Source of the DNA: Myxococcales bacterium
GTDB lineage: Bacteria > Myxococcota_A > Polyangia > Polyangiales > Polyangiaceae
Direction: 5' to 3'
Assembly: GCA_016720545.1 (NCBI GenBank)
Contig: JADKKK010000003.1
Location: forward strand, 345,516-409,515
DNA length: 64,000 nt
This document shows, one piece after another, positions 1 through 29,110 of the stretch. The notes beneath the pieces are model-generated. The model saw only the letters and a list, made by a program, of their open reading frames with translations, searched no databases and had not been told where the DNA came from. A program made the translations under genes and the position numbers. Position 1 is the stretch's first letter, and each line of letters begins with the position of its first letter.

Positions 1-570
1 CCGACCTCTCTCGCCGCGACCGCGAGGAGGATGGCCTGCCCGATCGACAGCAGGGCGTACGCGCGCCGACGAACAGCGCGAGCGGGCCGAGCTCGCGCGA
101 GTCGAGGGCGAGCGCCGTCGCCGAGGCGAGCACGAGCAGCACGTTGAAGTAGAACGACACGGCCGCCGCGCGCGCGGCCGACACCGCCCCGACGGGATCG
201 CAGCGGAGCAGCTTGGACCCCGACAGCCAGAGCCACGCCGCGAGGACGAGCCCCGGGATGCTGAGGAGCCCCGCCCATCGCGACCAAGCCGAGGGAGCGC
301 CCACGCGAGCCCGGCAGGAACATGGAGCCCATCACGAAGCGGCTCAGCGCGGCGAGCCGCACCACCCCGGCGCGCGCTCTGAGATGACCCGTGAAGACCG
401 GGCCGCCCGAGCGGTAGGCGCTGCGGTCGAGCACCTCGGGCGCCTTCCGGAAGGTCTGCCACGTAGGGCGGGTCTTCGCCTCCTCGCGGAGGTACACGGC
501 GCCCGCCAAAGGCGCGGCGTGGGTGATCGCGAACGCGCTGACGAGCCCGAAAAATATGCCGTCCGACATG
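1..570 (-). pseudogene. Integral membrane protein, N-terminal part (runs off window 5' end). Start ATG revcomp at 568-570 (MSDGIFFGLVSAFAITHAAPLAG...). Frame breaks about 250 nt in.
   Basis: Manual reverse translation gives a hydrophobic GC3-rich reading frame. A second frame continues with LLSIPGLVLAAWLWLSGSKLL...FYFNVLLVLASATALAL. No family recognised. Confidence 0.4.
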
Positions 571-787
571 GTTCCCGTCCAATCGTGAGCGACGCGGAGA
601 GCTCCCTGGGCCGGCGCTCCGCCCGTTCCCCCACCAGAGACGCTAGGGGTCGACCGCGCGCAGAGCAAGGCGGCGGGCGCGCGCGCCTGCCCCTCCCGGA
701 ACGCCCCCCGGGTGCGACGGCATTCCGCCGCGCTCGCCGCAGAAATCGTCGAGACCGTGACGGGGCGCGGGTATGCTGCGATCCCCC

Positions 788-1620
788 ATGATCGACAGTG
801 CCTCCTCCGTCCGCGCCCGGCTCGAAGAGACCGTCAGCGCCGTGCGCGCCAAGTCCTCCACCAACCTCGCGTCGGCCTCGTCCTCGGGAGCGGCCTCGGC
901 GCCTTCGGTGACACGCTCGACGACTTGGTAAAGATTCCTTACCATGAGCTGCCCCACCTCCCGCAGTCGAAGGTGGTCGGCCACTCGGGGAACCTCTGCT
1001 TCGGCAAGGTGAACGGCGTGCCGGTCGTGTGCGTGCAGGCGCATTCACCTCTACGAGGGGCACTCGGTGGAGGCCGTGGTGCACGGCGCGCACGCTCGCG
1101 AGGCTCGGGGTCGAGTCGGTGCTCACTCACGAACGCCGCCGGCGGCATCGAGCCGGAGTGGGCGCCGGGCGATCTCATGGTGCTCACCGACCACCTGGAC
1201 CTCACGGGGCACAACCCGCTCGTGGGCCCCAACGACGACGCGCTCGGCCCGCGCTTCCCGGACATGTCGGCCGCGTACGACCCGAAGCTCCGCGGCGCCG
1301 CGCACCACGCCGCCCGCGAGGCGGGGTTCTCCTTGCGCGAGGGCGTGTACGCCGGCCTGCTCGGGCCGACGCAGAGACCCCCGCCGAGGTGCGCATGCTC
1401 CGCGCCCGGCGCGCAAGCGGTGGGCATGAGCACCGTGCTCGACACCATCGCCCTCCGGCACATGAAGGTGCGGGTGGGCGCGCTGTCCTGCATCACCAAC
1501 CTGGCCGCCGGCCTCTCGAAGACCGAGCTCGATCACTCCGAGGTCGAGCAGACCGCGCGCGGCGCGCGCGAGCGGCTCACGGCGCTGCTGCGCGGCTGGA
1601 TCCAAGGGGCCGCGGCGTGA
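788..1620 (+). pseudogene. punA: Purine nucleoside phosphorylase (PNP/MTAP family), disrupted by at least 3 frameshifts
   Basis: MIDSASSVRARLEET... (frame 2), then VGLVLGSGLG...GHSGNLCFGKVNGVPVV (frame 1). HLYEGHS.EAVVH and TLARLGVESVL lie in two other frames. LTNAAGGI, GPNDDALGPRFPDMS, GMSTV and ITNLAAG are classical PNP motifs. Confidence 0.8.
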
Positions 1621-2065
1621 GCGGGCGAGCCCACCCGGCCCCAGGTCGATCTCCTCGCCGCGCTCGTCGCCGAGGCCCGCGGCCGCCAGGCGCGCGCGTA
1701 CGCCGTACTCGGGCTTCCACGTGGGCGCCGCGCTGCTCACGAAGAGCGGCCGGGTGTTCGTGGGTGCAACGTGGAGAACGCGTCTACCCGCGGGCATCTG
1801 CGCCGAGCGCACCGCCATCGTCTCCGCTGATCGCCGCCGGCGAGCGCGACCCCGTGGCGATGGCGATCGTCACGCCGGGCAAGCGCGGCGGCTCGCCGTG
1901 CGGCATCTGCCGGCAGACCCTGAGCGAGTTCGCGCGCGACATGCCAATCGCGCTCGTGGGCGTGGACGGCGACAAGGAGGCGCGGCGTGACACGCGGCTC
2001 GCGGCGCTCCTGCCGGACGCGTTCGACTTCGAGCCCGAGCACGACCCGCGCTCGCGCAAGAGCCC
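1617..2065 (+). pseudogene. cdd: Cytidine deaminase, frameshifted. GTG start overlaps the punA stop (GTGA). True 3' end uncertain, between 2065 and 2159.
   Basis: AYA(P)[26 protein letters not shown]...AGICAERTAIV.. then ..GERDPVAMAIVTPGKRGGSPCGICRQTLSEF. Zinc-binding CAER and PCGxCRQ motifs are present. One deleted C at gccccg breaks the frame. Confidence 0.8.
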
Positions 2066-2122
2066 TGACCCCGGGCGAGCCCAGGGCCGGCGCAAACGTG
2101 CAGGTTGCACACACGTCGTCGC

Positions 2123-3337
2123 TCAGAAGAAGCGCAGGCCAAACCCGATGGGCGCGTAGAGCACGCGGTTGTCGTTGGCGGGTTCGCGAAAATAGTAGCC
2201 AATGCTCGCTGTGATGAGCCACTGGCCATAGGGCTTCGTGGCCACCGAGAAGGCGAGGTCGAAGGTGGGCGAGAACACGATGTTCGTCGCCAGCTTGGTC
2301 GTCCCGGTGCAGCTCTGCGCCTGCCCGCCGAGCAGGCCAACCCCGAGCCACGCCCAGTCGCGCGCGCACGGGAGATCGCCGGGCCCATGGAGAGAAGTTC
2401 GAGCCCGCCACGCTGCCACACTCCGACCCGATGGCGGTGAGCGCGCGGACGAGGATCTCGGCGCGGCGCGTGAACGCGTAGCCGCCCTCGACCGCGAGCG
2501 ATGGAGGCGCCGGTCGCGCTCGCCTCCTGCGGGCCTTGTCGGCCTTGAAGAAGGCGTAGGGGACCGCGACGAAGTGGGCGCCGAACACGAAGCCGTCGGG
2601 CGCCGGAGCCGGCGGAGTCTTCGGAGGCACGGGCGGCGTAGGCGCGGGCACCTCGGCCGGCGGGGGCGTGACGCCGGGCGCGCGGCGCAGGCATCGCAAG
2701 ACTGGGCCGCTTGAACCTGAGCGTCTCCGACGCGCGGGGCCCAGTGTGAGATCGCGCTCTTCGCGGTACTCATCGGCCTCCACGACGACGTGGTGGGCGC
2801 CCGCGCCGAGGAGCACGGCGGTGGGGGTGCGCTCCTGCAGCTGCGCACCGTCGATGAAGACGCGCATGCCGGGCGGCTCGCTCTCGACGCGGAGGCGCGC
2901 CGCGCGCGCCTTCAGCTGTGCGGCGGCGACCGCGGCGGCGGTGGCGAACTCGCCCCGCTCGCCCTCGTCGGCGATGTACCGCTCATAGCCGTCGACGGCG
3001 GCCTGGACGCGCCCGAGCCGCTCGTCGCAGGCGCGAGGTTGTAGACGATGACCGGAGCGTGGTGGAGCTGCTCCGCCTCGGCGAAGCGCTGTCGTGCGCC
3101 GAGGACGTCGCCACCCTGGTAGAGCTTCCTCCTCCTGGAAGAGAGAGCGCCCGCTCCACCGCCGGTGCTTCCGGCGCGGCCCGCGACTCCTCGGCGCGGG
3201 CTGCGCGGGGGCGCGGCGGCGCCCCAGGTGAAGGTGGAGGCGCACGCGCACGCCACGCCAGCGCGCCGAGGCGGGCGGTGCGCGCCGACCACGGCCCCTC
3301 CCGCCCTCGCACGCACCGCATTCACGCGAGCGACCAC
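2123..3337 (-). pseudogene. PEGA-domain outer-membrane beta-barrel protein with TPR-like N-terminal segment and Pro-rich linker; frameshifted
   Basis: PEGA motif MRVFIDGAQLQERTPTAVLLGAGAHHVVVEADEYREERDL. Linker PPPAEVPAPTPPVPPKTPPAPAP. C-terminal OMP signature ...YAPIGFGLRFF ending in Phe. The 5' boundary is approximate. Confidence 0.55.
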
Positions 3338-3395
3338 GCCTGGAAGCTAGCAGGCGCGACGCGGCGCGGGCCGAAAAACGCGCCCTCGCGCGACT

Positions 3396-4843
3396 CTACT
3401 TCTCCACCTTGCAGTCGAGATCCTCGCTCACGAGCTCTCCGCCCGCGGCGCCGCCGTCACGCACGTAGACGACGGTGAACCCGCCACGCGGCTTCGCGAA
3501 CAGGCGCGCCTCGGACGCCTTCTCGTCGTCCTTCGACACGGCGTACGCGCGCCCCTGCGAGCGGAAATCAGCGCCGATCGGCATGATCCGAGGTGCCCTT
3601 CCCTTCTCGACGTCGTCGAGGTAAGATCCAGCGCTGGCCCTTGTCGTCGCGGAGGGACTCGGGCGCGGGCCGTGTGCGCCGTGAGTCTTCGTCGGTCACG
3701 TTCGTGGGCCCTGCGGGCAGCGTACCGCCCGCGACGCGCGCGCCGCGAGGGTCCTGCACGCCCCTTGCCGGTCGCCTGGGCCGCCATGAGCACGGTGTCG
3801 CGCCGTCGCGGGCGATGTCGGGCATCTGGAGTAGCCGGGGTAGCTCTTCGGCGCCCATCGGCTTCTTGTCGTGCGACACGAACGACGCGACGAGCCGCCC
3901 GCGTGCCACGAAGAACGAGCCATCCCGAAGCCGTCGGAGATGGGTGTCGTAGTCGATTCCTGGAACGGGCTCGCGCTCATCGGCGTGGCGTACGAGGGCC
4001 CTCGCTGTTCCGGCCTGGCGATGGTGAGCCTCGCCTGGGACTTGGCGTCCGCCTCCGTCCACCACCGGACCTTGAAGCTCGACACGACGACCTCCTCGTT
4101 GCGCTTGTGGGGTCGAAGAACGGACGGCAGTCGCGCTCGCGGTAGGGCCAGGCCGCCGTGATGTGGTGGGCGGCGACGAACGCCGGCACCGGGTCTTTCG
4201 AGGTCTTTGGATCATCGAGCACCGCCGGGCGCTTCCAGTCGACCCCAGCGCTCCGTGACGTTCGGTGGGGCCGCACACGATGGCGCTGCTTTCCGGGCCC
4301 GCCGGGTCGGGCGCCCTGGAACCTCGCGAAAGTCGACGAACGCCCCACGTTCGCGCCCTCGATCTTCGCGGGCGTCACGCGCCAGATGATGCGCGTCCCT
4401 CGCCGGCCTTCGGGGCGCTTGGCGAACTCGAGCCGGGTTCAGGTGACCTTCTTTAGGCCGCCCGCCGCCCTCTCCTTTGACGTTGAAGAGCACGCACGGC
4501 GTGTTACCGAGCGCGAGCCCGACGACGTCGGTGCCGTCAGGGGTCCCTCCGCCGTGAGCCCCGTGAGTGTTGACCCTTGGTCCACACCTTCTGGTTCACC
4601 GTGCAGGTGGGCTTCAGCTCCGGCGCGCTCGGCGCGCTGGACGCTCGCCGTCGCGACGGGCTGCCCGACCGCCGCGCTCGCCGTGGCCGACGAAGCATTG
4701 GCGGCGCCGCCGGTGTCGTCGCTTCTTCTTGGGCAGCCCAGGAGGGCCGTCGCGGAGAGCGGTGACGACGAGAGGCAACAGCGGAGCGGCCCTTGCTCAC
4801 GGGCGATGCTACCAAGGTGCCGCTCGCGCGTCAACCCCAACAC
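3396..4843 (-). pseudogene. Secreted or lipoprotein of unknown family, mosaic of at least 5 frames. Contains the apparently intact 62-aa tail ORF 3396..3584.
   Basis: Protein-like segments in successive frames. Lipobox-like N-terminus ...ATALLGC. Then KPTCTVNQKVWTKG, PDGTDVVGLALGNTPCVLFNVKGEGGG, VAAHHITAAWPYRERDCRPFFDPT, SSFKVRWWTEADAKSQARLTIARPEQRGPSYA, GIDYDTHLRRLRDGSFFVARGRLVASFVSHDKKPMGAEELPRLLQMPDIARDG and MPIGADFRSQGRAYAVSKDDEKASEARLFAKPRGGFTVVYVRDGG...DCKVEK. Confidence 0.45.
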
Positions 4844-4846
4844 ACC

Positions 4847-7043
4847 TCAGTCGGACGGTTCTTGCGGCGTCGCGTCGTCTTCGGCACCTTGCCCTCGGCG
4901 GAGAACGCTGCGCAGTGGGCATCTGCCGGAAGCGGCTCTGGCCGGGCCGCGACCTCCGCGACGCGGACCACCTCTCCGGTGCTCTTGGAAGCGGTACTGC
5001 GAGCGGAACGCCGGCGCGCCCGCCTTTGGCCGACCCCTGGCCAGCGCCCGTCGCTCTGGAGGGCCCACGACCCGGCCGTGTCCTGGCTCGAGATCGAGCA
5101 TGTCCGCGCGGAGCTTCGCGCGCAGGGTGGCCCTCGATGGGGATCATCACCTCGACCCGCCGGTGAGGTTTCGCGGCATCCAGTCGGCGCTCGAGAGATA
5201 GGACCTCCTCTTTTCCGCCGTTGAAGCGGAAACACGCGACCGTGCTCAGGTACCGATCGACGATGGCGCGCCACCTCTGATGTTTTCGCTCACGTTCGGG
5301 ACACCGGGTCGCAGGCAGCAGATACCGCGAATGAGCAAGGTGATCTGCGCCTGCCTGGGAGGCGCAGTAGAGGGGCCTCGATCACGTCTTCGTCGACGAG
5401 CGAGTTCATCTTGGCCACGATGCGCGCCGGCTTCCCGTGGCGAGCCTGCTCGGCCTCCCGCGCGATGAGGCCCAGCACCCCCTCGTGGAGGCCGAGGGCG
5501 CGACGATGAGCGGGTTCCACGCGCCGGGCGCTGTAGCCGGTGAGCAGGTTGAAGAGCGACGACGCGTCTTCCCCGATGCTGGTGCGGCACGTGAGGAGCA
5601 GAAACGTCGGTGTAGTGCCTCGCGGTCCCCGGGTTGTAGGTGCCAGTCGACAGGTGCACGTACCGCCGCAGTCCGGCGCGCGCCGGACGATGAGCAGGCA
5701 CTTCGCGTGGGTCTTGAGGCCCATGAGGCCATGACCACGTACACGCCCGCTCTGCTCGAGGGTGCGGGCCCACTGGATGTTGGACTCTTCGTCGAAGCGG
5801 GCCTTCGAGCTCGACGATGGCGGTGACCTGCTTGCCCGACTCCGCGGCCCGCGCGAGCGCCTTGACGATGGAGAGTCGCCGCCGGCGCAGTAGAGGTCTG
5901 CTTGATGCCAACACGTCAGGGTCTTCGGCCGCGCGGCTGACGAGTTCGACGATCGGATCGAACGACTCGTAGGGGTGGTGAAGCAGGATGTCGCCGTCAC
6001 GGATGGCAGCGAAGATGTCCTCCGCGTCGCGCAGCCAGGGCACGGCAAGCGGCACGTCCGGCTCATCCCGCAGGTTGCGCCGCTCCTCGCGCGCGAACAG
6101 CGCGAGGGGATCGCTCACGTTCAGGACCGCCGTCGTGCGGTAGACGTCGCGCACGGGTCGAGCTTCAGGGCCTTCACCAGCTTGGAGAGCGACGCCTCGG
6201 TGTACTCTCGGACACCTCCAGCCTGACGGCGTTGCCGCGCTCGCGGCGGCGGGGCTCTCCTGCTGAATCGTCTGGAGGAGATCTTCCGCCTCCTCCTCGT
6301 CGATCTCGATGTCGAAGTTGCGTGTCACGCGGAACGCGTAGACCCCCTTCAGCCGCACCCCTGGGAAGATCATGTCGACGTGCCGCGCGACGATGTCCTC
6401 GAGCAGCACGAACGCGTGCGGCGCGACGACGCCGCGGCGCTCGGGACCAGGCCCACCATCATGAGGCGAGCAACATCGTGGGCACTTGCACGACGCCGAA
6501 GTTCACGTCGCCCGAGCCGTCGCGCGAGAACATGACGCCGAGGTTCAGGCTCTTGTTGCGCACGTGAGGAACGGGTGCCCCGGGTCGATCGCGATGGGCG
6601 TGAGGACCGGGAAGATCTCGCTGTGGAACCGCTCGTCGAGGCGGGCGAGCGCGTCCTCGGGGAGCTCCGCGGGCTTCAGCCACGCGTAGCCTTGCTCGGC
6701 CAGGGCGGGCAGGAGGTGGTGCTTCAGCACCTCGTCCTGGTGGAGCATCATCTCGTGCACTCGCTCGGAGATGCGGGTGATCTGTCGGCCGCACGCTCAT
6801 GCCGTCGGGGCGATCTCGCCGACCACGCCGGTGAGCTGCTGCTTAGGCCGGCCACCCGGACCATGAAAGAACTCGTCGAGGTTCGGGTGACGATCGCGTG
6901 GATTTCAGGCGCTCGAGGAGCGGCACGGTCTCAGTCTCGGCCTCGGCCAGCACGCGCGCGTTGAACTCGAGCCAGGACGCTCGCGGTTCCAGATAGAGGT
7001 GCGGGGCGCGCAGGTCGTCGGCCTCGCGGCTCGCCGGTGGCAT
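4847..7043 (-). pseudogene. ppk1: Polyphosphate kinase 1, at least 5 frameshifts. 3' end approximate.
   Basis: Start MPPASREADDLRAPHLYLEPRASWLEFNARVLAEAETETVPLLERLK (ATG revcomp 7041-7043). N-domain FHSEIFPVLTPIAIDPGHPF. Catalytic ...KTHAKCLLIVRR, YVHLSTGTYNP.TAR.YTD, FNLLTGYS, KMNSLVDE. C-terminus IVDRYL..FNGGKEEV...RRVEVMIPIE...LDLE. Confidence 0.85.
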
Positions 7044-7555
7044 CGACGCGGAGGTCGGTGCGGTCCGGCGGGCGACGTGGTGGAGAGCGGCGCCGGCTCG
7101 ATGGGATCCATGCGTGGTCCGTTCTGCAAGAACGCTTTCGGAACACCAACTTGCGCGCAACCTAGCCCGACCTGCGTCAGGGTCACGGGAGGCGACGACC
7201 CGGGGGCCGACGGCTGGTCGAAGCGCGGCGCGCTCCGACAGCGCGGTCGTTCCGCAAGAAGACCGCGTGCCCTGAGTTCGCCGTCTCCGTGTAGCTCGCG
7301 AGACCCACGCCGCGCTCTCGGGGCGGTGCTCCCCCCGAAATCGCGGACCGACTCCTGCCAGGTGATGAGCGGCGCTTTGTCGTGAAACGAACGCGGCCGG
7401 CGGCTTCGCGCGGAGCGCGCGAGGGAAGTCGCGCTCGTGCTCGTCGCGGAGGGCCACGATCTGGCGGGCCTGCACGGGGTTGGGGTGGAGGCCGACGGGA
7501 TCCGGCAGGTTGCCGCCCGCGAGCGCGGCGTCCGGGTTAGGTCGTAGGCGTAAAT

Positions 7556-8755
7556 TTAGGGCGTCGCGCTGAGTCGCTGGGCGAGGAAGAGGACGTAGGG
7601 GGGTCCATGCCGTAGGTCTGGACGCGCTCGTCCGGTTGGGTCGTGAGGCGCAGGTACAGAGGCGGCCTGACGGAGCTCCCACGGGAAGAAGTCGCTCGTC
7701 TGGAAGTACACGAGGTAGTCGTGCGACGTGCGCTCGATGGGGTCCCGGGCCTTCGTGAGGAGCCAGAGGCCCTGCACGTACGGCGAAATCGGCATCAACG
7801 TGGCGACCCGCAGCAGAGCGCGGCGCGCCGCAACGATGGGCAGGAGGCGATCGGGACGCCGCCGGGGCGCGGAAGGTGCGCTCGGCGTACCAGCAGACGA
7901 GCAGCACCCACTGGAGGCTCACCCCGCGCTCACCGGGTGGAAGTGGTAGGGAACCCTTTGCGCTGCGCGAGCATTTGCTCGCGAGGCCACTAGCGGGGGG
8001 CGAGCGCGATGGCGAGCGCGGCGCGGCAGCGTGCCCGTCGCGATGAGGCTCACGCCATCACCGCGCTCGTGGCGACCGCCGCCGCGGCGGGTGGAGAAGC
8101 CATCGAGGCCGAGGATCTCGTAGGGGGTGCGCGGCCAGATGAACCGGTACATGAGCGGCACGTCGACGAGGTAGGTGCGGAAGAACACCACCAGGTCCCC
8201 GAGGACCGCGAGGTAGAGCAACTGCGTGGCCGCGCCGAGCGCCGCGCCGACCGCGAAGGCGAAGAGCCGTCGCTTGCGGGGAGTGGGCACGTCGTCCACG
8301 AGGAGGGTCGCGATCTGAACGACCGTGAACAGGGCGTACGTGGGACGCCGAACCACAAGATGAGCGAGCGCGCCCGCCCACACGAGCGCAGCGCGCCCAG
8401 GGAACCAGGCCCCCTCCCCCGCGCGGCTGATGGCGGCGTCGGACTCGCCGTTCCGCATGCGGTCTTGGGCGGCGAGCGGGAGGCCGAGGAGGTCAGCGGG
8501 AACCAGTCGCGAAGCTCTCTCGCTGGGCCGTCCCAAAAATGTAGAGGAGATACTGCCCGCACTCAGCACCACCCAGGCGGCCAGCGCCCAGCCGGACCGG
8601 GAGGCGATCTCGCGGACCCACCGGGCGGCAGGCCCTGCCCGGAAGGTTCGGCCTCGCCCGCCGCCCGATCCAGGGATGCACGCGCCCACGAACGCGAAGG
8701 CGACGCCGCTCTCGAGATCGAGGACATGGAAGACGTGCTCGTCGGCGCCTCCCAA
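7556..8755 (-). pseudogene. Polytopic membrane protein, possible GT87/DUF2029-like glycosyltransferase; frameshifted across 7919/7922
   Basis: Multiple TM segments (WALAAWVVLSAGSISSTFLG, ALFTVVQIATLLV, LFAFAVGAALGAATQLLYLAVLGDLVVFF). Continues after a frame break as SLQWVLLVCWYAERTF...MPISPYVQGLWLLTKARDPIERTSHDYLVYFQTSDFFPWE. The family assignment is a guess. Confidence 0.4.
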
Positions 8756-9159
8756 CGAGAAACGCGATGTGGACCCGGTGGGTCAGCGGGCCGTTGACGT
8801 CGCGCACGTCGCGGTAGTCCACGTCGCCCTTCAGCACGGCCCAGGCGATGTACTGGAAGATCCCCTGGTCGCGCCCGAGCAGCCGAGGTCGCCCGGCAGG
8901 TGGCGTCGACCCACCAGTAGAGCGGGGGAGCGCCACGACCAGCGCGGGAGCAGCACCCGGAGGGCTCGCTGCCCCGAGGACGAGGCTCTTCTTGCGGGGC
9001 TCGCGGGCATGTCGGCGCCCGGCGTGCTTCCCATCATTGGCCCGGAGAAGCAAGCGCGGGCCGCCCCACCCCGTGGGGCTGGACACCTGCGACGTGCCTG
9101 CAAAAGGGCTCACGTCCCGACCCCAGAGGGGAGCACAATTCCGCTCCACTCCCAGGCGA

Positions 9160-10254: not shown

Positions 10255-10261
10255 AGGGTCG

Positions 10262-11245: not shown

Positions 11246-11295
11246 GGCGCTCGACCATTCGCGCCCCCTCGGCCCCGCAAGAGAGCCATCGGGTA

Positions 11296-15097: not shown

Positions 15098-15098
15098 G

Positions 15099-16337: not shown

Positions 16338-16501
16338 CGCCGCGGCAGGATACCCGACACGCGAGCGGGCGCGAGCCTGGCGCTCCGTGCGCCAACGGTG
16401 CGTTACCCCGCACTTCCTGCGCCGCCCTCGGAGGAGCCCCGGGGCGCCCTCTCAGGTATCCGCGGGCCGCCGCTTGTCACGCGCCTTGCTTGGGTTGGTT
16501 C

Positions 16502-18423: not shown

Positions 18424-18483
18424 GACCCGTGGTGATCGAGCGATGCAGGTTGACACCCGCGCTCAGACTGCAACCTTCTGCGG

Positions 18484-19897: not shown

Positions 19898-19987
19898 CAG
19901 ACTCCGAGCCCTGCCCGGTGCCGCGGCTCGTGCCACGTGGGCCGCTCGGGTCTTGCGCACTCGGGCGCATCGGCCATACTCCGCCGA

Positions 19988-20933
19988 ATGCGCGCCCTCT
20001 TCCTTGCACTGCCGCTGATTCTCGCACCATTCGCCACCTTCGCGTGCTCCAGCGACGATCCGGGCGATTCGGGCACCTCGCCGACGTCCACGTCCACCAC
20101 CACGACGCCCGTGCCCTCCGTGCTCCCCGACGGCGCCCCCAACCCGACGCCACGGCGACGACCGACGGCGGGGCCCCGGTCCCGACGGCACGGTGCCCCT
20201 GACCGACAGCGGCAACCGTCCACGCCCGGCGTCGTCGGAGCGAACGGCATCGCCGACTGGGACGCTCGGCGACAAGGCCCAGGTCAAGGTATTCCGCAGC
20301 TTCTTCTTGCACCAGTCGGTGGGCGGCGACCTGGAGGACGTCGCGCAGTTCAACGGCTACAAGTTCGAGTACGCGACGAGCGGCTCCACGAACCTCAGGC
20401 CGGGGCTCAACGGCGGGCTGTTCTCCACCAGCAACGGCAACCCGGCGGGCAAAATCGCCGAGTTTCGCTCGATGGCGCTGGCCAACAAGTCGAACCTCCG
20501 CGTGGCGATCATGAAGTTCGGCTACGCCGACATCGTCGCCGGCAAGGTCGCGGGCGCGCAGACCGCCTACGAGGCGGCCGTCGCCGCCGTGAAGGCCGAG
20601 GGCGTGCGCGTGCTCCACGTCACGCCGCCGTTCGTCTACAACGTGCCCGCAGAGAACGCGCCCAAGCAGGCGATGCGCACGTGGATGATGACCACGTTCC
20701 CGAACGACATCATCTTCGACCTGCAAGACATCGAGAGCACCGAGCCCGGGAGCGGCACGCGCTGCGAGCGCGGCGGCTCGTGGGAGATCTGCAACTCGAT
20801 CCGCTCGACGAGCGGCTGTGCGAGCCTCAATCAGGGCGTCGACTCGGCCTCGGGTCAGGGCCACCTCTGCTACACGCACGCCAAGCGCATCTCGAAGGCG
20901 TTCCTTTACGCGATCTACCTCGCGGGCAAGTGA
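19988..20933 (+). pseudogene. Lipoprotein of unknown function; one frameshift between the signal/linker and the body
   Basis: MRALFLALPLILAPFATFACSSDDPGDSGTSPTSTSTTTTP lipobox. Body ...KVFRSFFLHQSVGGDLEDVAQFNGYKFEYATSG...LHVTPPFVYNV... Confidence 0.55.
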
Positions 20934-20988
20934 GGGCACCCACGCGGGCTGTGGCTCGGCGCGGGAGAGCGCCCGCCACGCATCGCCT

Positions 20989-21558
20989 TTAGCGCGCACG
21001 CGGGAGGGGCACGCGCACCTCGCGACGGGCCGCGCCCGCGTCGGCGACGTCGCTCACGAGGAACGGCATCTCGAGGCGGCGCTTTACCGGCACGCACACC
21101 GCGTGGGTCGCCTCGTCGCACACCACGAGGTCCACGGTGCCAGCCAGGCCGGCCTCGGGGGCGCCGCGTGCGGCGACCACCCGCACGTCGAACCCACGGG
21201 AGACCTCCCGCCCCTTCCCACGCAGCTCGGGCGGCACCTCGGCGAGGCCTTCGCTCGTCGTCCACCTCACGTGAAAAGGGGCGTCGTCGTTCACCGCCGT
21301 TCCCAGCGGCGCCTCCCACGCGACGTGGATGGTCGTCGCGGCGCGCGACGAGATCGTGACGGCCGGCACGACCACGCTCACGGCGGCCGCAGGCGGCGGC
21401 GGGGATGGGGATGGGGCGCCCGCGTCGGGAGGATGGACGTCGGGCTTGGGGCCCCCGGCGCGCGAGCACCCGACGACGAGCGCGAGCACCGCCGCCAGGC
21501 CCCGACGCGCCCGCACGCGCGAGGCGCGCGAACCGCAGAGTGCCGAGCGCGCGATCAC
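20989..21558 (-). CDS. Lipoprotein (189 aa), unknown function
   Basis: LAAVLALVVGCS lipobox. Intact. Confidence 0.55.
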   Translation of the reverse strand: MIARSALCGSRASRVRARRGLAAVLALVVGCSRAGGPKPDVHPPDAGAPSPSPPPPAAAVSVVVPAVTISSRAATTIHVAWEAPLGTAVNDDAPFHVRWTTSEGLAEVPPELRGKGREVSRGFDVRVVAARGAPEAGLAGTVDLVVCDEATHAVCVPVKRRLEMPFLVSDVADAGAARREVRVPLPRAR

Positions 21559-22856
21559 GTGCCTAGGGGAATGCCGAGCGATTTTCCGATCCCACAGGCC
21601 GCTGTCGCCCCCACCGCCGTCGGGCGCGTGCGTACCGCCGCCGTCGTCCGAGGCGCGCCCGAAGAACCGAGCAGCTCGTCACGGCGCGCCTGGGCGTCCG
21701 CGCGCCCCATCTCGATGAGCTGCCGGCAGAACGGCCCGTCGAACAGCAGGTAGCTCGCGAGGTCGGCCTCGTCGCCGCCTCCGATGTCCAGGAGCGAGAA
21801 AAGACGCTTCGTAAGTAATGGATTTCCCTGAAACTTTCCCTTCCGCACGTGGACGGCGGCGAGCTTCCCGATGTCCTCGCTCGGCCTCACCGTGAGCGCC
21901 GTCACGTGGCGGTAGGGGCGCGCGCCGCGGCGCTCGGCCTCGACGCTCATCGCTCGCGTGAAGTCGGGCCCGTAGACCTTCGTGCCGTCGGCGACGACGT
22001 GGTTCACGCGGTTCAGCATCTCGATGTCGACGTCGACGTGGTCGAGCAGGAACGCGTTCAGGGCTTCCCGAGCAGGAACGCGGCACCGGGCGAGCGCGCG
22101 CTCTCCTTGGCCGGCTCGACGACGCCGCGGACCTCACGCGAGCCTCGCGATGGCAAAGATGTGGGTCGCGCCGAGGGCGAGGGCGGGCGCGATGGGCGTG
22201 TTCTGGCGGAGCCCTCCGTCGAGGTAGAGGTCGTGATCGATGCGCACCGGCGGGAACAGCAGCGGGATCGCCGCGCTCGCGAGCGCGTGCACCGGCCCGA
22301 TGTGCGCCTGGCGGAAGAGGGTCCGCGGGGGCACGACGTCGGGCATCGCGACGTTCGGTGCAGTCTGCACAAAAATCACCGTGCGGCCCGTCGCGACCTC
22401 GGTCGTCGACACGGTCAGCGCGCGGAGCTTGTTCTTGCGGAGCGAGCGGGCGACGGCGCGCCAGGAGATCTCTCGCCCGACGAGATCGGCCATCGGGCTC
22501 ACGTCGAAGAGGCCCGTCCCCGCGCCCCCGCCCATCACCACGCTGGGGAGCCCGGCGAACTGGCGGAGCCCGAAGCCCAGCACGCGGGTGATCTCGAGCT
22601 CGGACCACAGGTGCACGAGCCGGCGCAGGCCTAGCACGGGATCGGCGAGGTGCGCGGCGAGGTAGCACGCGTTGATCGCGCCCACGCTGGTGCCAGAGAG
22701 CACGTCGACGCGAGGCGGCCCGCCGCGCATCCGCGTGAGCTCCTCGAACACGTAGGAGAGGACGCCCACCTCGTACGCGCCGCGGGCGCCGCCGCCCGAG
22801 AAGATCATGCCGACGCGCTTCGGCGTGGGCTCGCCCCCGCTGGTGATGCTGGTCAT
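21555..22856 (-). pseudogene. Patatin-like phospholipase, frameshift between 22134 and 22019
   Basis: GGGARGAYEVGVL (oxyanion Gly-rich loop), LSGTSVGAIN (GxSxG nucleophile), DGG motif DLYLDGGL. Confidence 0.75.
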
Positions 22857-25800
22857 TTCTTCTCCGACGGCGGCAACGAGCGGGCGCCAAGCATGGCGGT
22901 GAGCTCGCTCGGTCGATCCGCGCGACGACCAGCGGCGAGGGCGTGGTGTCGAAGAGCGCGGCCACCATCGCGCGCTGCGAGTAGAGCTTCCGCAGGCGCA
23001 TGTTCCGGATGGTCTCCATCACGCCGGTCGCGTAGTCGACGGCGCGCTGTCACGTGGCGGCCGCCTGGGGACCCGCGCGCTTCAGCGCGTCGGCGCACAA
23101 GGTGCGCACGTCGAGCCCGTACTCGCTGCCTTGGAGCGCCTCGACCGCGCCGAGGGCGGTGGTCGCGAGCAGGGTGGCCGAGTGCACCTCGCCCGCGTCG
23201 ACGCGGGCCGAGGCCTCGATCGCGAACGCGTAGAAATGATAGGCCACGAGCGCCTGCTTCTCGGCCATCCGCCGGGCCTCGATCGCGAGCTCGATGGCCT
23301 TCTGAGGCTCGCGGCGCGCCTGCGCGATCGCCGCGCCCACGACCAGCCCGTGCGCCCGCCACCCGCCTCTTCGAGAGCGCCGTTGTCGAGAGCGACCTCC
23401 GGCGCTCACGAGCAGCGTGTCGGTGCGACCGTCTTTGTCGGCGTAGCGCTCTGGGCATCGCGCGCGCTGGAGGTAGGCCGCCGCGCGTGGCACGTCGCCG
23501 AGGCGCGAGTAGGCGTGCCCGATGTTGGCGAGCGTCTTGGCGGCTGGAACCGGCCGCCCACGGAGAGGTCGATTTGGATCGACTCGAACGCGAGCGCGAT
23601 GGCGTCTTCGTAGCGACCTTGCACGGAACATGGCGTAGGCGAGCGCGTTTTTGGCCCGCGCCTCTTGGCGATGCGCGCCGCTCTTGCGGTAGATCGCGAT
23701 CGCCTGCACGTAGTCGTCCACGGCCTCGCGCACTCGCCCCACACGACGGAGCAGCACCCGCGAGAGCGCAGCGCGTCGGCGCGCAGCCGCGGCGGCACGT
23801 TGGCGTTCACGTCGGGGTTCGCGGCGGCGAGCGCGCGGTCGGCCGCCGCGAGCGCCGCCTGCGTCGCCGAGCTCGCGACAGCTCGCTCGTGAGCGACTCG
23901 GCCTCGATCTCCAGCTGAAGGAAGCCGGAGCCGCGGGCGATTTGGGCGGCCTTCCGGGCGATCGGCAGGCCGTGGGGCAGCCGCCCTTCGTCGAGATCGA
24001 AGCGGGCCGTACGGAGGAACGCGAGGCACACGCTTCGAGGCGTACCGACGTGGCGCGCGCACGCGCGCATGCCCTCGAGCTGCGCGACGCGATCGCGCTT
24101 GCGGCCGAGCATCCGGTAGATGCCCTCGAGCGCCTCGTGCGCGACGAGCCTTCGCGGGTCGTCGATGGTGAGCTGGAGGAGGGCGCGCTTGTAATAACGG
24201 ACGGCGAGCGGCGTCTGGTAGGTCGTGCGCGCCGCGGTGGCCGCCTCGATGTAGTAGTGCGCCGCGCGCTCGCCGTCGTCGCCGCGGGCAAAATGGCTGG
24301 CCACGATCGCCGCGGAGACACCCCTCGCGAGCGGGGTGCCGGTGAGGTGCTCGCCGAGCGCCTTGTGCATTCGGGCTCGCGCGGTGGCAGAGAGCGCTCC
24401 GTAGGCGACGTCGCGCGTGAGCGGGTGGCGGAAGTCGAGGTCGCTCCCGCGCCGATCGCGAACCCCCGCTCGCAGAGGCGGGCGGCGGGCTCGGTGGCCA
24501 CGCTCGGGACGGAGCTCCCCTCAGCGAGCAACCGCTCCAGGTCGGGGACGGCGAGCGGACCGCCCGCGATCGCGAGCCAGTCCACGATGCGCCGCTCACG
24601 AGGCGGGAGCTCCTCGATGCGGTCGGCGAGGAGCTGCTCGAGCGTCTGGGGGAGGAAGAACTCGCGCTCGCCCTCCTCGGCGCGGACCAGGGCATCCTCC
24701 CGGATCTCGAGGACGCCCCGCTCGAGGAGCGCGTCGACGAGCTCGAGCAAGAAGAACGGATTGCCCCCCACGCGCGGGAGCAGCTCGGCGCACACCTCGC
24801 GGACCCCCTCCTTCACGCCGATGCGTGTCTCGACGAGCCGCACCTGCTGGTCGCCCGAGAGGCCGTGCAGCTCGATGCGCACCTTGCCCTCGAGGAGGGG
24901 GGCGAGACGCTCGTCGGGTCGGGTCACGAGGACCACCAAAATAGGCAGTGGATCCGTGGATTTCAGCAGATCCGCGAGGACGTCGAGGCTCGGCTTGTCG
25001 GCCCACTGCAGGCCCTCGGCGACGAGCACGACGGGGCCATCGGCGGCGAACGCGCCGAGGAGGTTGCGCACGCTCGTGACGAGCAGGCGCTTCTGGTAAG
25101 CCGCGTCGTCGTTGTCGCCCTGTCCAGACGGGCGGTTCGTCACGAGCTCGGCGAGCCGCGCGACCATGGGGTTGTCCCCCTTCGCGCCGGGTCCGCCCGC
25201 GGGCCCGAGCACCTCGACGACCTCCGCGTAGCTCTCCTCGCCCGTGAGCGCGGCGGCCGATCGGACGAGCTCGGCGATCGTCGCGAACGGCACCTCCATC
25301 CGCACCGGCGAGCACTCGGCGCGCACGATCCGCGCGTTCGGCGGCAGCTCGGCGAGGAAGCTGTGGACGAGCGCGGTCTTGCCGATACCGAGCTCACCGA
25401 CGACGGCGCGCGCGCTCATCTTGTCGTGGCTCGTGGCGTTCATCGCCGCGTGGTACGCCGCGACCAGCTCGGCCTTCTCCGCGTCCCGCCCGACCAAATC
25501 GTGCGGCGACGCCCCGAGCCGATCGCGCTCCTCCCGCGAGGCTGCGCTCGAGCGTGTAGATGCGCATCGTCGGCGGAGGTTTGGGACGTCGGTGTCGCTC
25601 GGGAAGTCGAGGCTCGGCGCGTCGCCCCAGCGAAACTCCCGGCGCACGAGGCGGTAGAGCCCGCCCGCGACCCACGTGGTGTTCGGCGGGGTCTTCCGGC
25701 TGAGCGTGTCGGCCAGGTAGGTGACCGGATCGTGCAACGTGTACCGGACGAGGTTCCCGCTCGCGTCGCGGATGCCCGAGGCGATCCCGCGGACCAGCGT

Positions 25801-27203
25801 CATCGTGGCCGACACGGGCGCGGGGAGATCGTCCGCCAGCGCGGCGAGGGCCTCGTGGGTCTCCAAGGCCAGCCACGCGGAGTCGGAGGGGGCGCGCGCG
25901 TGCCGCGCGGTGAGGCCTACGACGGCGCGGGCCTGGAAGTCGGAGGTCCACTGCCACCGCGCACCGCGCTTGTAGGCCATATCGTCGAGCATCGGGCGGA
26001 GCCGCAGGATCGCCCGCGCGAGGCGCGCGCGTTCGCCTTCGGTGAGCACCTGCTGCGGGGCGAGCTCGAGCGTCACGAGCGCGATGTGCCGCACCTCGCG
26101 GTGCTCGCCGCCGCGCTTGTTGGGCCTCGACGACGCGGGCGCGCGATCGCTCGCGATCGCCACCGGCGCCGCGGGGTTCGTGAGCTCGGGCCCAGGCGCG
26201 GGGGACCCGCCGCGATCGCCGCGACGATCGCTCGGCCGCGGGAGGAACGCGTGGATCGTCGCCTCCAGGGGCCGCGCCGTCCACCAGCTCTTGGCGCGAC
26301 AGGAGCGCTCGACCGATGGCCGCCACGAGCTCCCTCCCCGTCGCGTAGCGGCCCTCGGGCCGCGGCGCGAGGAGCTTCATCACGATCTGCTCGAGCTCGG
26401 CGGGCAGATCCATCGCGAACGTGCTCGGCGGCTCGACGCGGCCCGTGCGGACCACCTCGAGGAGCGCCGTCCCGGTGGCGCTGCCGGCGGGACCGGCCGG
26501 AGAGGCACTCCCAGAGGATGACGCCGAGCGAGTAGAGATCGCTGCGGCGGTCGACCCGCTCCCCGCGGGCCTGCTCGGGCGACATGTACCCGTACTTGCC
26601 CTTGATGACCCCCTGCTCGTCCTGCAGGAAGCGCGCGCTCGCGATGCCAAAATCCGCAATTTTTACGCTGCCGTCGTAGGAGAGCAGCACGTTCTGGGGC
26701 GACACGTCGCGGTGAACGATCTCGAGCGACGCGCCGCCGTCGTCTTTCTTCTCGTGCGCGTAGTGGAGGCCCTTGGCCACCTCGGCGATGACGTAGGCGC
26801 TCACCCAGGGCGGCAGGCGCACGCCGGCCGCGCGGGCGGCCGCGACGATCATGCCGAAGTCCGGGCCCTCGACGTACTCCATCGCGAGGATGTGCCCCTC
26901 GGCCCCCTCGTTCGAGAAGTCGTAGACCTGCACCACGTTCGGGTGGTTCAGGCGGGTGGCGAGCTGCGCCTCGTCGATGAACATCGTGCGAAAGCGCCGC
27001 GACGCCCCGAACGAGGGCAGGATGCGCTTGACGACGACGATCTTCGAGGTGCCCTCGGCGCCGCTCTTGCGCGCCAGGAACACCTCGGCCATGCCGCCCG
27101 CGCCGAGGCGCCGAAGCACGTCGTACTGCGCCAACTTTTCGGGGAAAGATTCAGTCACGGCGTGCGCGGTGTCGATGGACGGGCTTGGCCCCGTAGCCCC
27201 CAC
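22853..27203 (-). pseudogene. Multidomain signalling protein: N-terminal Ser/Thr kinase, cyclase-like region, AAA/STAND ATPase (Walker A GELGIGKT), long TPR array. Multiple frameshifts. Could alternatively be two adjacent genes.
   Basis: Kinase: LGAGGMAEVF, VVVKRI, HRDVSPQNVLL, KIADFGIA, GYMSPEQ. AAA: LVGRDAEKAEL...GELGIGKTALVHSF. TPR-like helices through 23100. The C-terminus shifts frame to end ...ARIDRASELTAMLGARSLPPSEKK with an ATGA overlap onto patatin. Confidence 0.6.
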
Positions 27204-27374
27204 CCCGGGAAAGTGCTGTCACCAGCGCCGCCCAGTGTACCCGCGTTCACGAGGGCGGCGCTCAGGAAAACCACGCGCGGAGGGGCGACGCGAGGGCGAC
27301 GCAGGGGCGAGCCACGCGGCGATCGCCGCCCGCGACGGTTTCACGCTCGCCTCGGCTGGTGATGCAGGATATTT

Positions 27375-29095
27375 TTGAGCCTGATGGAAGCCTTGCCCCC
27401 GCCGACGGCTGCCGGTCTGCTCGCAAAGACGCCGCTGGCGCACCTTTTCACCTACGTGATGGAGCGACGCCTCTCGGGCTCGCTCGTCCTCCGCCGCCCC
27501 GACGGCTGGGGCGGGGCCATCGTCTTCTTCGAGGGCCTGCCCCGAAAGGCCGACGCGCCGCCAGAGATCGCCCCGTCCGATCCCGGGGCGCTGGCAGCGC
27601 TCGAGGCGCAGGTGCAGTGCCTCTTCACCTTCCCGCCGGCCACGCAGTTCGCGTTCTACGAGGGGCGCGACACGCTGCAAGAGCGCGGGCCTGGCTTCGT
27701 CGAGGCCGATCCCCTGCGGCTCTTGTGGGCCGGGGTCCGCATGAACCCCTCGTGGGATCACGCGAACGCGGCGCTCGCGCGCCTGCAGACCGTGGCGATC
27801 CGCCTGAAGGCGTCCGCGGCCCCCGAGCGGTGCGGTTTCGACGCGAGCGAGCTGCAGATCGTGGAGCTGCTGCGGCATCGCCCGCTGTTCCTCGGCGACC
27901 TCACGGCGGCGCGCCTGGTCCCGCCGGCCCTGGCTCACTTGTTCGTCTATTTCATGCTGATCACGAAGCAGCTCGACCTGCTCGAGGCGCCGCCGGGGAT
28001 GAAAGCACCTCCGATCGTGCCGCTGGGGCCGCAGGCGCACCCGCAGCAGCCGCAGCCCTCGTTTCACCCGCACGCCGCGCATGCCCCACACGCGCATGCC
28101 CACCACGCCGCCCCGGCTCCCGGCATGAGCCCGATGCCCCAGGCCTACGCGGTCCCCGGCGCGCCGCCCGCGACGCGTCAGCACCCGCCTTCGGACGCGC
28201 CGTTCAACCCGTTCTCCGACCTCTCGCTTGGCCCGCCCCCGCCCGTCCCGGCGACCCGTTCGCGCCCACCTCGAGCCCAAGCTCCCGCCGAACGGGGCGG
28301 CCGGCGTGGCGGCGCCCCCGACGCGCCACAAGCCGACGCTGAGCGACGCTGACAGCGCCCCTGTGGGCCCGGGTCGTCGCCAAGGCGGCCTCGATCGACG
28401 AAGAGGACCACTACCAGGCGCTCGGGATCGCGCCGGCGACCCCGAAGGAAGACATCCAGAAGGCCTTCTTCGCCCTCGCCAAGACGTGGCACCCGGACAA
28501 GCTGCCGTCGACGCTCGGCGAGCTCCGCGACGCGTGCAGCAAGGTGTTCGCGCGCATCACCGAGGCGCACGCGGTCCTGACCGACGTGGCCCGGCGCGAG
28601 GAGTACGACAAGAACCTGCGCGACGGCACGGGCGGCGCGGCCGAGCAGGCGGAGGTCCAGCGCGCCCTCGAGGCGGCCAACAATTTCCAGAAGGCCCTCG
28701 TCTACTTGAAGCGCAACGACACCGCGACGTGCGAAGAGCTCGCGCGGAAGGCGCTCGAGGCCGACTCGACGCAGGCCGACTACCTCGCGCTCGTCACCTG
28801 GCTCGACGCCCAGAAGCCCCACAACCTGAACTTCGATCGCACCCGCGAGCTCATTCTCAAGCTCGACAACGCGATCGCCATGAACGGCAGCTGCGAGCGC
28901 GCCCACTTCTATCGAGGCATGCTCCACAAGCGCACGGAGAACCCGAAGCAGGCCCTGAAGGACTTCAAGCGCGCGGTGGAGCTGAACCCCCACAACCTCG
29001 ACGCCGCCCGCGAAATTCGCCTCCACGGCATGAGGCAGCCGTCCAAGGGAGAAGAGGGCGTCGGGGGGCTCCTGGGCCGCTTCTTCAAGAAGTAG
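27375..29095 (+). pseudogene. DUF4388-like N-terminal domain, HP/Q-rich linker, DnaJ J-domain and TPR-like C-terminal region; frameshift around 28300-28340
   Basis: LFTYVMERRLSGSLVLRRPDGWGGAIVFFEG. J-domain DHYQALGIAPATPKEDIQKAFFALAKTWHPDKLP (HPD motif). The J-domain N-terminus has no in-frame start, so it must continue from the upstream frame. Confidence 0.6.
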
Positions 29096-29110
29096 CCCGC
29101 GCCCCGCCCC

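What the first reader, a model, noticed from the sequence alone, without database searches (positions are those of the whole stretch)
1..29100. Clustered single-base frameshifts break well-known housekeeping genes
The following each need 1 to 5 frame changes to read through: punA, cdd, ppk1, a DHH phosphoesterase, the PEGA outer-membrane protein, two lipoproteins, a membrane GT-like gene, the beta-helix MYXO-CTERM gene, patatin, the ~1450-aa kinase-AAA-TPR gene and the DUF4388-J-domain gene. The 11.3-18.4 kb and 29-60 kb blocks (around 25 genes) are completely intact. Where resolvable (for example cdd, gccccg to gccg), the lesion is a homopolymer-length indel. The uneven distribution means either coverage-dependent long-read or homopolymer assembly error, or a genuinely decaying region. 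Essential-looking genes (ppk1, punA) being hit favours the error explanation.
Basis: partly seen in the sequence, partly recalled or inferred. Interest (0 to 1): 0.5.

Follow-up and report, generated by a model that had tools for sequence, protein, structure and literature searches.

The report
Sequencing errors, not broken genes
The frameshifts that break ppk1, punA, cdd and about a dozen other genes in the first 29 kb are almost certainly uncorrected long-read sequencing errors in a metagenome-assembled myxobacterial genome, because independent assemblies of the same organism carry every one of these genes intact.

Summary
The window is a 72% GC Polyangiaceae genome assembled from activated-sludge or wastewater metagenomes.

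Independent assemblies that are 99.5-99.9% identical exist: three NCBI genomes plus ENA, JGI and Logan short-read contigs. In all of them the listed genes are intact.

Against these assemblies the window carries 283 small indels, distributed as follows:
- **Positions 1-9950:** 235 indels (23.6/kb) plus 147 substitutions. Positions 3.5-5.25 kb reach 8.3 differences per 100 bp, which is raw-read level.
- **Positions 19.6-28.4 kb:** 36 indels, in clumps.
- **The rest of the window:** almost none.

Of the 279 indels checked, 274 are private to the window. The other five lie in a genuine tandem-repeat polymorphism.

The spectrum is technical:
- Deletions outnumber insertions 2.5:1.
- 73% are 1 bp and 22% are 2 bp.
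- There are more indels than substitutions.
- Only 33% lie in homopolymer runs of 3 or more.
- Substitutions in the dense zone ignore codon position (52:40:39), whereas in clean DNA they favour third positions (6:6:31).

The per-gene load is far above "1-5": ppk1 has 52, the 480-aa lipoprotein 62, and the 626-aa membrane protein 48.

Verdict: an artefact of patchy, low-depth polishing of a long-read assembly, with little biological interest.

The parts
1..9950 (.). Dense error zone. It has 235 small indels (168 deletions, 67 insertions) and 147 substitutions relative to near-identical assemblies. Differences per 100 bp are 1.8 at 1-3500, 8.3 at 3501-5250 and 3.7 at 5251-9950. The first indel is at 65 and the last at 9922, after which the rate drops abruptly to zero.
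   Evidence: alignment to L097, L096, L098, L099, L100, L101
19631..28361 (.). Patchy error zone with 36 small indels in clumps: 19631-20265, 21587-22144, 23070-23877, 24459, 25519-25576, 26271-26485 and 28053-28361. The window also lacks 225 bp at about 19670, 48 bp at 22912 and 52 bp at 23358.
   Evidence: alignment to L009, L007, L010-L012
1..569 (-). 230-aa hypothetical protein gene, which runs off the start of the window. It has 7 indels.
788..1620 (+). punA, purine nucleoside phosphorylase (PF01048, 279 aa in the reference assemblies). It has 6 indels, at 859, 1039, 1091, 1126, 1373 and 1407.
1617..2068 (+). cdd, cytidine deaminase (151 aa in the reference assemblies). It has 10 indels.
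2123..3337 (-). PEGA-domain protein (394-409 aa in the reference assemblies). It has 20 indels.
3396..4799 (-). 480-aa lipoprotein (lipobox LLGC). It has 62 indels and 52 substitutions, which is raw-read error level.
4847..7111 (-). ppk1, polyphosphate kinase 1. It is 762 aa in five other assemblies, and homologues are 740-820 aa. It has 52 indels and 34 substitutions.
7183..9037 (-). 626-aa membrane protein with no Pfam match. It has 48 indels.
9153..10254 (+). DHH phosphoesterase (373 aa in the reference assemblies). It has 17 indels, all before position 9923.
10262..11223 (+). fmt, methionyl-tRNA formyltransferase (320 aa). It has one private 1-bp deletion at 11149, near the 3' end.
18553..19897 (+). 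Beta-helix protein with a MYXO-CTERM tail (525 aa in the reference). It has 3 one-base deletions and lacks 225 bp.
19988..20933 (+). 316-aa lipoprotein. It has 4 indels.
21555..22856 (-). Patatin-like phospholipase (433 aa). It has 4 indels (+1, -1, -1, +1).
22853..27158 (-). Ser/Thr kinase-AAA_16-TPR protein, 1474 aa and intact in L007 and L009. It has 19 small indels and lacks 48 bp and 52 bp.
27384..29095 (+). DnaJ-TPR protein, 572 aa and intact in L007. It has 6 indels at 28053-28361.

Best explanation
The frameshifts are consensus errors in a long-read, probably Oxford Nanopore, metagenome assembly that was polished unevenly.

The organism is a low-abundance Polyangiaceae bacterium from activated sludge. 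Where the contig was supported by enough reads, polishing produced an essentially error-free sequence (10-19.6 kb and 28.4-64 kb). Where support fell to one or a few long reads and short reads did not correct it, the sequence kept raw-read-type errors: mostly 1-2 bp deletions, some insertions, and transition-biased substitutions. That describes 1-9.95 kb and the clumps between 19.6 and 28.4 kb.

These errors shred every reading frame they fall in, regardless of what the gene does. The genes are not pseudogenes in the organism.

What is shown:
- The lesions are private to this assembly.
- Their spectrum is indel-rich and deletion-biased.
- They are blind to codon position.
- The same genes are intact in independent assemblies.

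What is inferred:
- The sequencing platform.
- That low local depth, or polishing windows left uncorrected, caused the patchiness.
For: 1. **Independent assemblies are intact.** Assemblies that are 99.5-99.9% identical carry every affected gene intact. They are GCA_016704525.1, GCA_963852875.1 and GCA_035433285.1, plus ENA ERZ965205, ERZ27280342 and ERZ27275376, JGI 3300038804, 3300005660 and 3300027802, and Logan runs.
2. **The indels are clustered.** The window has 235 indels in 1-9950 and 36 in 19.6-28.4 kb, against 2 in the 26 kb from 28.4 to 54.7 kb.
3. **The references agree with each other.** Most reference pairs show 0-1 gap openings per 5-11 kb. The exceptions are the two long-read genomes against each other (9) and one short-read contig, L100 (17).
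4. **The indels are private.** For 274 of 279 indels, the window's 21-mer across the site is absent from every assembly that covers it. The five exceptions are a tandem-repeat polymorphism.
5. **The spectrum is technical.** Deletions outnumber insertions 168:67, indels outnumber substitutions 1.6:1, sizes are 1-2 bp, and 59% of substitutions are transitions. Local error reaches 8.3% at 3501-5250. This matches published nanopore read error of about 8% in high-GC DNA. That study also reports a deletion bias, A/G confusion, and about half of errors in runs of 2 or more (PMC8486125). Here 51% of small indels are in runs of 2 or more.
6. **Substitutions in the dense zone look unselected.** They are spread evenly over codon positions (52:40:39, 69% nonsynonymous). 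In the clean zone they behave like real polymorphism (6:6:31, 67% synonymous).
7. **Errors ignore gene boundaries.** They also occur in intergenic DNA, for example at 682-709.
8. **The source looks like a long-read assembly.** A window-specific protein matches GenBank MBL0194269.1 exactly. That protein comes from a Myxococcales metagenome-assembled genome whose contig is 617,599 bp, a length typical of long-read metagenome assembly.
9. **A sister genome shows a plausible mechanism.** JADIZX (GCA_016704525.1) comes from a nanopore plus Illumina study. In that study this species had only about 13-15x coverage. Racon was run there with --include-unpolished, so windows without read support stay uncorrected (PMC8012365).
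10. **The artefact is documented.** Fragmented gene calls from indels in low-coverage nanopore metagenome genomes are well described (PMC9262707).
Against: - The raw reads of the source assembly could not be examined, so the low-depth and unpolished explanation is inferred rather than shown.
- The source assembly was not retrieved. Only one of its proteins was found, so its sequencing platform is not documented here.
- The comparison assemblies come from other samples, so in principle the window's strain could differ from them.
- A few differences may be real variants: the 3-bp indels, the 225/48/52-bp losses and the 9- to 27-bp repeat differences.
- No platform-specific sequence motif could be recovered around the deletions.
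Confidence: 0.95

Rival explanations
1. Genuine decay. In this particular strain a 10-kb segment, plus parts of 19.6-28.4 kb, has lost function and is accumulating real frameshift mutations, making these genes true pseudogenes.
For: - Substitutions in the dense zone look unselected (52:40:39 over codon positions), which relaxed selection would also produce.
- The window's strain does differ structurally from the others, by a 1431-bp insertion carrying a PAAR gene.
Against: - The private divergence of the dense zone is 3.8% (up to 8.3%), while flanking DNA of the same contig differs from the same references by 0.15-0.3%. That would need a local mutation rate 10-50 times higher, with a sharp edge at 9922.
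- Indels outnumber substitutions 1.6:1. From general knowledge, bacterial pseudogene decay is dominated by substitutions.
- None of the 274 lesions is shared with any of 6 or more independent assemblies of the population.
- Housekeeping genes are hit as hard as hypothetical ones, and intergenic DNA is hit too.
- ppk1 alone would need 52 independent indels.
Confidence: 0.02
2. Chimeric or divergent-strain sequence. Positions 1-9950 come from a more distant relative that was joined to this contig, so the differences are real inter-strain divergence.
For: Divergence rises abruptly at a boundary near 9.9 kb.
Against: - Real divergence of 4% between functional genomes would be mostly synonymous substitutions with the reading frames preserved. 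Here all frames are destroyed by 235 indels, and 69% of substitutions are nonsynonymous.
- Gene order continues without a break across the boundary, exactly as in the references.
- A real relative (L016, 83% DNA identity) has intact reading frames for hyp230 and punA (the PEGA gene is cut by the end of its contig).
Confidence: 0.01
3. Mixed case. Most lesions are errors, but a minority are real strain polymorphisms. Candidates are the in-frame 3-bp indels, the 225-, 48- and 52-bp losses, the 11.68-11.94 kb repeat differences and the 9-bp difference at 30898.
For: - The repeat differences at 11.68-11.94 kb also vary among the reference assemblies, in multiples of 9.
- The 30898 difference is a 9-bp tandem unit.
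- Clean-zone substitutions look like real polymorphism.
Against: - The three larger losses and most of the 3-bp indels sit inside the error clumps and are private to the window. That fits long-read artefacts equally well.
- This case does not change the verdict on the frameshifts.
Confidence: 0.3
4. Programmed ribosomal frameshifting or another recoding mechanism reads through the shifts.
For: None.
Against: - Orthologues in the same population and in other Polyangiaceae have uninterrupted frames at the same positions.
- There are dozens of shifts per gene, of both signs, and they occur at no common motif.
Confidence: 0.001

Closest known systems
Indel errors in long-read (Oxford Nanopore) assemblies that fragment gene calls, especially in low-coverage metagenome-assembled genomes (Sereika et al. 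2022, PMC9262707; Cusco et al. 2021, PMC8103633; proovframe preprint 10.1101/2021.08.23.457338; Watson and Warr 2019, from my own knowledge)
   Same: - The indels are private, 1-2 bp and deletion-biased, and they truncate or shift genes of every functional class.
- Homopolymers are enriched among the sites.
- The damage depends on coverage and polishing.
- The same genes are intact in short-read assemblies.
   Different: - The density here (24 indels/kb, and locally 8% total error) is far above the residual homopolymer errors of a polished assembly.
- About half of the indels are outside any homopolymer.
- So these stretches resemble raw reads or a consensus of 1-3 reads, not the usual polished residue.
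Raw nanopore read error profile in high-GC bacteria (Delahaye and Nicolas 2021, PMC8486125)
   Same: - Total error is about 8% in the worst stretch.
- Deletions outnumber insertions.
- About half of the errors are in runs of 2 or more.
- A<->G substitutions are the most frequent.
   Different: - The 3-mer pattern that the paper reports after non-homopolymer deletions could not be seen here.
- The sequencing platform of the window is not documented.
Pseudogene-rich decaying regions in bacteria such as Mycobacterium leprae or recent symbionts (from my own knowledge)
   Same: Many adjacent genes, including housekeeping genes, carry frameshifts.
   Different: - The lesions are not shared by any other member of the population.
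- Indels outnumber substitutions.
- The damage is confined to blocks with sharp edges, inside a contig that is otherwise 99.8% identical to the others.
- Intergenic DNA is equally affected.

Membership tests
Long-read assembly consensus error | The lesions are private to one assembly and absent from independent assemblies of the same population. | tested here: met
   274 of 279 indels are private. Six assemblies cover 1-9950 and 2-4 cover 19.6-28.4 kb. Most reference pairs differ from each other by 0-1 gap openings per 5-11 kb.
Long-read assembly consensus error | The spectrum is dominated by small indels and biased towards deletions, with substitutions in the minority. | tested here: met
   Positions 1-9950 have 168 deletions, 67 insertions and 147 substitutions. 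95% of indels are 1-2 bp.
Long-read assembly consensus error | Indels are enriched in homopolymer runs. | tested here: met
   33% of indels are in runs of 3 or more, against 14% of bases. 18% are in runs of 4 or more, against 4.6% of bases. The enrichment is 2.4- to 3.9-fold, but about half of the indels are in no run.
Long-read assembly consensus error | The errors are blind to coding: no codon-position bias, and intergenic DNA is hit as well. | tested here: met
   Codon positions are 52:40:39 in the dense zone and 6:6:31 in the clean zone. Intergenic indels occur at 682-709 and 2116.
Long-read assembly consensus error | The error blocks coincide with low read depth or with windows that polishing left uncorrected. 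| not testable with these tools
   No reads are available. The support is indirect: about 13-15x coverage for the sister genome, and Racon run with --include-unpolished in that study.
Long-read assembly consensus error | The assembly was made from long reads. | tested here: inconclusive
   A window-specific protein equals MBL0194269.1, from a 617,599-bp contig of a metagenome-assembled genome. The record itself could not be fetched.
True pseudogenes / decaying region | The lesions are present in the organism's DNA, meaning reads support them or related strains share them. | tested here: not met
   No lesion is shared with any other assembly. Read support is not testable.
True pseudogenes / decaying region | Divergence is substitution-led and comparable with the flanking DNA of the same lineage. 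| tested here: not met
   Private divergence is 3.8-8.3% in the blocks against 0.15-0.3% in the flanks, and indels outnumber substitutions.
Programmed frameshift / recoding | The shift site is conserved in orthologues. | tested here: not met
   Orthologues have uninterrupted frames.

The most novel reading that the evidence does not exclude
The window's strain really carries a locally hypermutated or decaying 10-kb segment, plus smaller patches. In this reading ppk1, punA, cdd, a DHH phosphoesterase and their neighbours have been destroyed by hundreds of recent indels, while the rest of the genome stays 99.8% identical to its relatives. That would imply an unknown, indel-generating mutational process confined to one region.
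Probability: 0.01. Interest if true: 0.6.

Novelty: not a real feature. Interest (0 to 1): 0.05.

Why it matters
It matters only for data quality. About 14 genes in this window would be wrongly scored as pseudogenes or as missing in metabolic reconstruction. They include ppk1, which is relevant to polyphosphate metabolism in a wastewater organism, and also punA, cdd, fmt and a large signalling kinase.

The case also shows that a 'high-quality' long-read metagenome genome can contain kilobase stretches at raw-read accuracy next to perfect sequence. A frameshift count made by eye in high-GC DNA underestimates the damage about ten-fold. Intact versions of every affected gene are available from sister assemblies for correction.

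Tried and rejected
- **GC3 and codon-usage Viterbi frame tracking.** It located frame switches, but it was too noisy in the worst stretches, where it called 'non-coding'. Direct alignment replaced it.
- **Scan of GTDB species representatives with punA.** It did not return this species, only relatives at 81% identity or less. Those were useful for showing intact reading frames in other Polyangiaceae (hyp230, punA; the PEGA gene is cut at the contig end), but too distant for calling indels.
- **Attempts to retrieve the window's own source contig all failed.** I tried exact look-up of window proteins and of MBL0194269.1. Only the protein record was found.
- **Search for other genomes of the same dRep cluster in the supplement of PMC8012365.** The stored file is cut, and only JADIZX was found.
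- **Search for the nanopore-specific 3-mer signature after non-homopolymer deletions.** It gave no signal on either strand.
- **Search of JGI metagenomes for the PAAR insertion.** It returned only a relative at 58% identity, so it did not settle whether the insertion is real.
- **Alternatives considered and rejected.** Programmed frameshifting, a chimeric join to a divergent strain, and diversity-generating mechanisms all fail. All frames are destroyed by indels of both signs, at no common motif, and orthologues are intact.
Full report
**What the window is**

The window is 72% GC. Exact look-ups of intact window proteins showed that nearly the same DNA has been assembled many times from wastewater or activated-sludge metagenomes:
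- GCA_016704525.1, contig JADIZX010000009.1 (234 kb)
- GCA_963852875.1, contig CAWKVH010000008.1 (814 kb)
- GCA_035433285.1 (short contigs)
- GCA_020054605.1
- ENA assemblies ERZ965205, ERZ27280342 and ERZ27275376
- JGI metagenomes 3300005660, 3300027802 and 3300038804
- several Logan runs

JADIZX is listed as a Polyangiaceae genome (AalW_18-Q3-R10-53_BAT3C.9) in the supplement of Singleton et al. 2021 (PMC8012365). None of these records is the window's own source, because each differs from it by a few substitutions even in clean regions.

**Checking the observation**

I aligned the window to these near-identical loci and listed every difference. Merged over the best reference for each stretch:

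| Window region | Small indels | Substitutions |
|---|---|---|
| 1-9950 | 235 (168 deletions, 67 insertions; 23.6/kb) | 147 |
| 9951-19600 | 6 (5 in a tandem-repeat polymorphism at 11.68-11.86 kb, 1 private 1-bp deletion at 11149 in fmt) | 28 |
| 19601-28400 | 36, in clumps | 22 |
| 28401-54686 | 2 (together one 9-bp repeat-unit difference at 30898) | 38 |
| 54.7-64 kb | 4 isolated 1-bp indels | not tabulated for this stretch |

The clustering is overwhelming. For 1-9950 the count is 235 against 45 expected (p = 3e-137). For 19.6-28.4 kb, among the remaining indels, it is 36 against 8 expected (p = 9e-19).

- punA (279 aa)
- cdd (151 aa)
- PEGA protein (394-409 aa)
- a 480-aa lipoprotein
- ppk1 (762 aa)
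- a 626-aa membrane protein
- DHH phosphoesterase (373 aa)
- a 525-aa beta-helix protein with a MYXO-CTERM tail
- a 316-aa lipoprotein
- patatin (433 aa)
- the kinase-AAA_16-TPR protein (1474 aa)
- the DnaJ-TPR protein (572 aa)

- **The count per gene is far higher than 1-5.** Examples are punA 6, cdd 10, PEGA 20, the 480-aa lipoprotein 62, ppk1 52, the 626-aa protein 48, DHH 17 and the kinase 19. Many indels compensate within tens of bases. Out-of-frame stretches in 72% GC DNA rarely contain stop codons, so they cannot be seen by eye. punA stays a single open 302-codon ORF, and tblastn runs straight through it despite six indels.
- **They are not all single-base.** 73% are 1 bp and 22% are 2 bp.
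- **Homopolymers explain only part.** 33% lie in runs of 3 or more, against 14% of bases. 18% lie in runs of 4 or more, against 4.6% of bases. About half are in no run at all.
- **Substitutions are also elevated.** There are 14.8/kb in the dense zone against 1.4-2.9/kb elsewhere.
- **Some larger pieces are missing.** The window lacks 225 bp at about 19670, 48 bp at 22912 and 52 bp at 23358, all inside error clumps.

**Error or decay?** Four independent lines point to error.

1. **Privacy.** For 274 of 279 indels, the window's 21-mer across the site is absent from every covering assembly. The five exceptions are the repeat polymorphism. The reference assemblies come from different samples, and several were built from short reads (k127 and k141 contigs). 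Most pairs differ by 0-1 gap openings per 5-11 kb; L097-L096 (9) and L097-L100 (17) differ by more.
2. **Spectrum.** Deletions outnumber insertions 2.5:1. Indels outnumber substitutions 1.6:1. 59% of substitutions are transitions, with A<->G the most frequent. At 3501-5250 the total difference is 8.3 per 100 bp. Delahaye and Nicolas (PMC8486125) report about 8% error for nanopore reads of high-GC bacteria, mainly deletions. They find roughly half of errors in runs of 2 or more, and A/G the hardest pair to tell apart. Here 51% of small indels are in runs of 2 or more.
3. **Blindness to coding.** Substitutions in the dense zone fall 52:40:39 on codon positions 1, 2 and 3 (69% nonsynonymous). Those in the clean zone fall 6:6:31 (67% synonymous), as real polymorphism under selection should. 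Intergenic DNA is hit too.
4. **Scale.** The blocks have 3.8-8.3% private divergence and sharp edges (last indel at 9922, next at 11149). They sit inside a contig that otherwise differs from the same references by 0.15-0.3%.

Relaxed selection could mimic the third point. It cannot produce the first, second or fourth.

**Likely mechanism (inferred)**

The window carries a 1431-bp insertion that the other assemblies lack. Its PAAR-domain protein matches the GenBank protein MBL0194269.1 exactly over 272 of 272 residues. That protein comes from a Myxococcales metagenome-assembled genome with a 617,599-bp contig. A contig of that length points to long-read assembly.

In the study that produced the sister genome JADIZX, this species had only about 13-15x coverage. 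Assemblies there were polished with Racon using --include-unpolished, then medaka, then Illumina Racon. Windows without read support therefore remain uncorrected (PMC8012365).

Sereika et al. (PMC9262707) document that nanopore metagenome genomes below about 40x need short-read polishing to avoid fragmented gene calls caused by indels.

The pattern here fits local depth drop-outs with incomplete polishing: perfect sequence alternating with blocks of 1.8%, 3.7% and 8.3% error. I could not confirm that the window's source belongs to that project, and I could not see any reads.

The other large-contig genomes have a few private frameshifts of their own. For example, GCA_963852875.1 breaks the 412-aa kinase that is intact in the window. 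This shows the problem is general for this species' long-read assemblies.

**Comparison with what is known, and verdict**

This is the well-described artefact of indel errors in long-read assemblies, in an unusually severe and patchy form. It is not a member of the class of real pseudogene clusters, because the defining features that could be tested (shared or fixed lesions, substitution-led divergence) are not met. It is not recoding either.

- Novelty: not a real biological feature.
- Interest: low (0.05).
- Practical consequence: the roughly 14 genes should be treated as intact in the organism, and the first 28.4 kb of this window should not be used for any inference at the sequence level.

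Noticed in passing
window 16414-17844: A 1431-bp segment is present only in the window and absent from all 9 other assemblies that span the site. It is flanked by a 5-bp direct repeat (CGCAC) and lies between two divergent genes. It encodes a 446-aa protein with a signal peptide and a PAAR motif (PF05488, E = 7e-14). The closest homologues are 67-74% identical and up to 652 aa long. It has no clear terminal inverted repeats. It could be a real strain-specific cassette or a misjoin.
   Followed up: partly
window 11681-11940: There is a tandem-repeat polymorphism (9/18-bp units, Pro/Ala-rich) in the N-terminal part of the PilZ-domain gene (ORF 11296-12723). The assemblies differ from each other by 9, 27 or 32 bp. 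JADIZX seems to carry a 5-bp oddity that splits the gene there.
   Followed up: partly
window about 19670, 22912 and 23358: The window lacks 225 bp, 48 bp and 52 bp that all other assemblies have. These fall within the beta-helix/MYXO-CTERM gene, the patatin-kinase junction and the kinase gene. Each loss is bounded by 2-4 bp of microhomology and sits inside an error clump.
   Followed up: partly
window 60382-60830; L102 10887-13567: A segment of about 420 bp is flanked by the inverted repeat GCTCTAGCTAG / CTAGCTAGAGC. In GCA_963852875.1 the segment lies in the opposite orientation. There it also holds about 2 kb more, with a 563-aa DDE transposase (DUF772 + DDE_Tnp_1) and a 23S_rRNA_IVP-family protein. 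The window and JADIZX appear to hold a remnant or empty form of an insertion sequence.
   Followed up: partly
window 63929: A 1-bp deletion (CCC to CC) is private to the window against three assemblies. It shifts the frame of the NMT1-family substrate-binding gene of an ABC transporter.
   Followed up: yes
L096 (GCA_963852875.1) at window-equivalent positions 11754, 15041 and 15393; L001: The other large-contig genome has its own private frameshifts. For example, the Ser/Thr kinase is 412 aa and intact in the window but called as 356 aa there. Gene calls in L001 also differ from those in L002 and L007 at two places.
   Followed up: partly
window 56000-58000: There is an island of lower GC content (62.7% against about 72%). 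It carries a 413-aa gene and a 335-aa acetyltransferase-like gene and may have been acquired horizontally. It is present in the other assemblies too.
   Followed up: no
window 30898: There is a 9-bp tandem-unit difference (CCCGCGCGA) at the 3' end of the PhyH-family gene (269 aa in the window against 272 aa). It is in frame and is probably a real variant.
   Followed up: no
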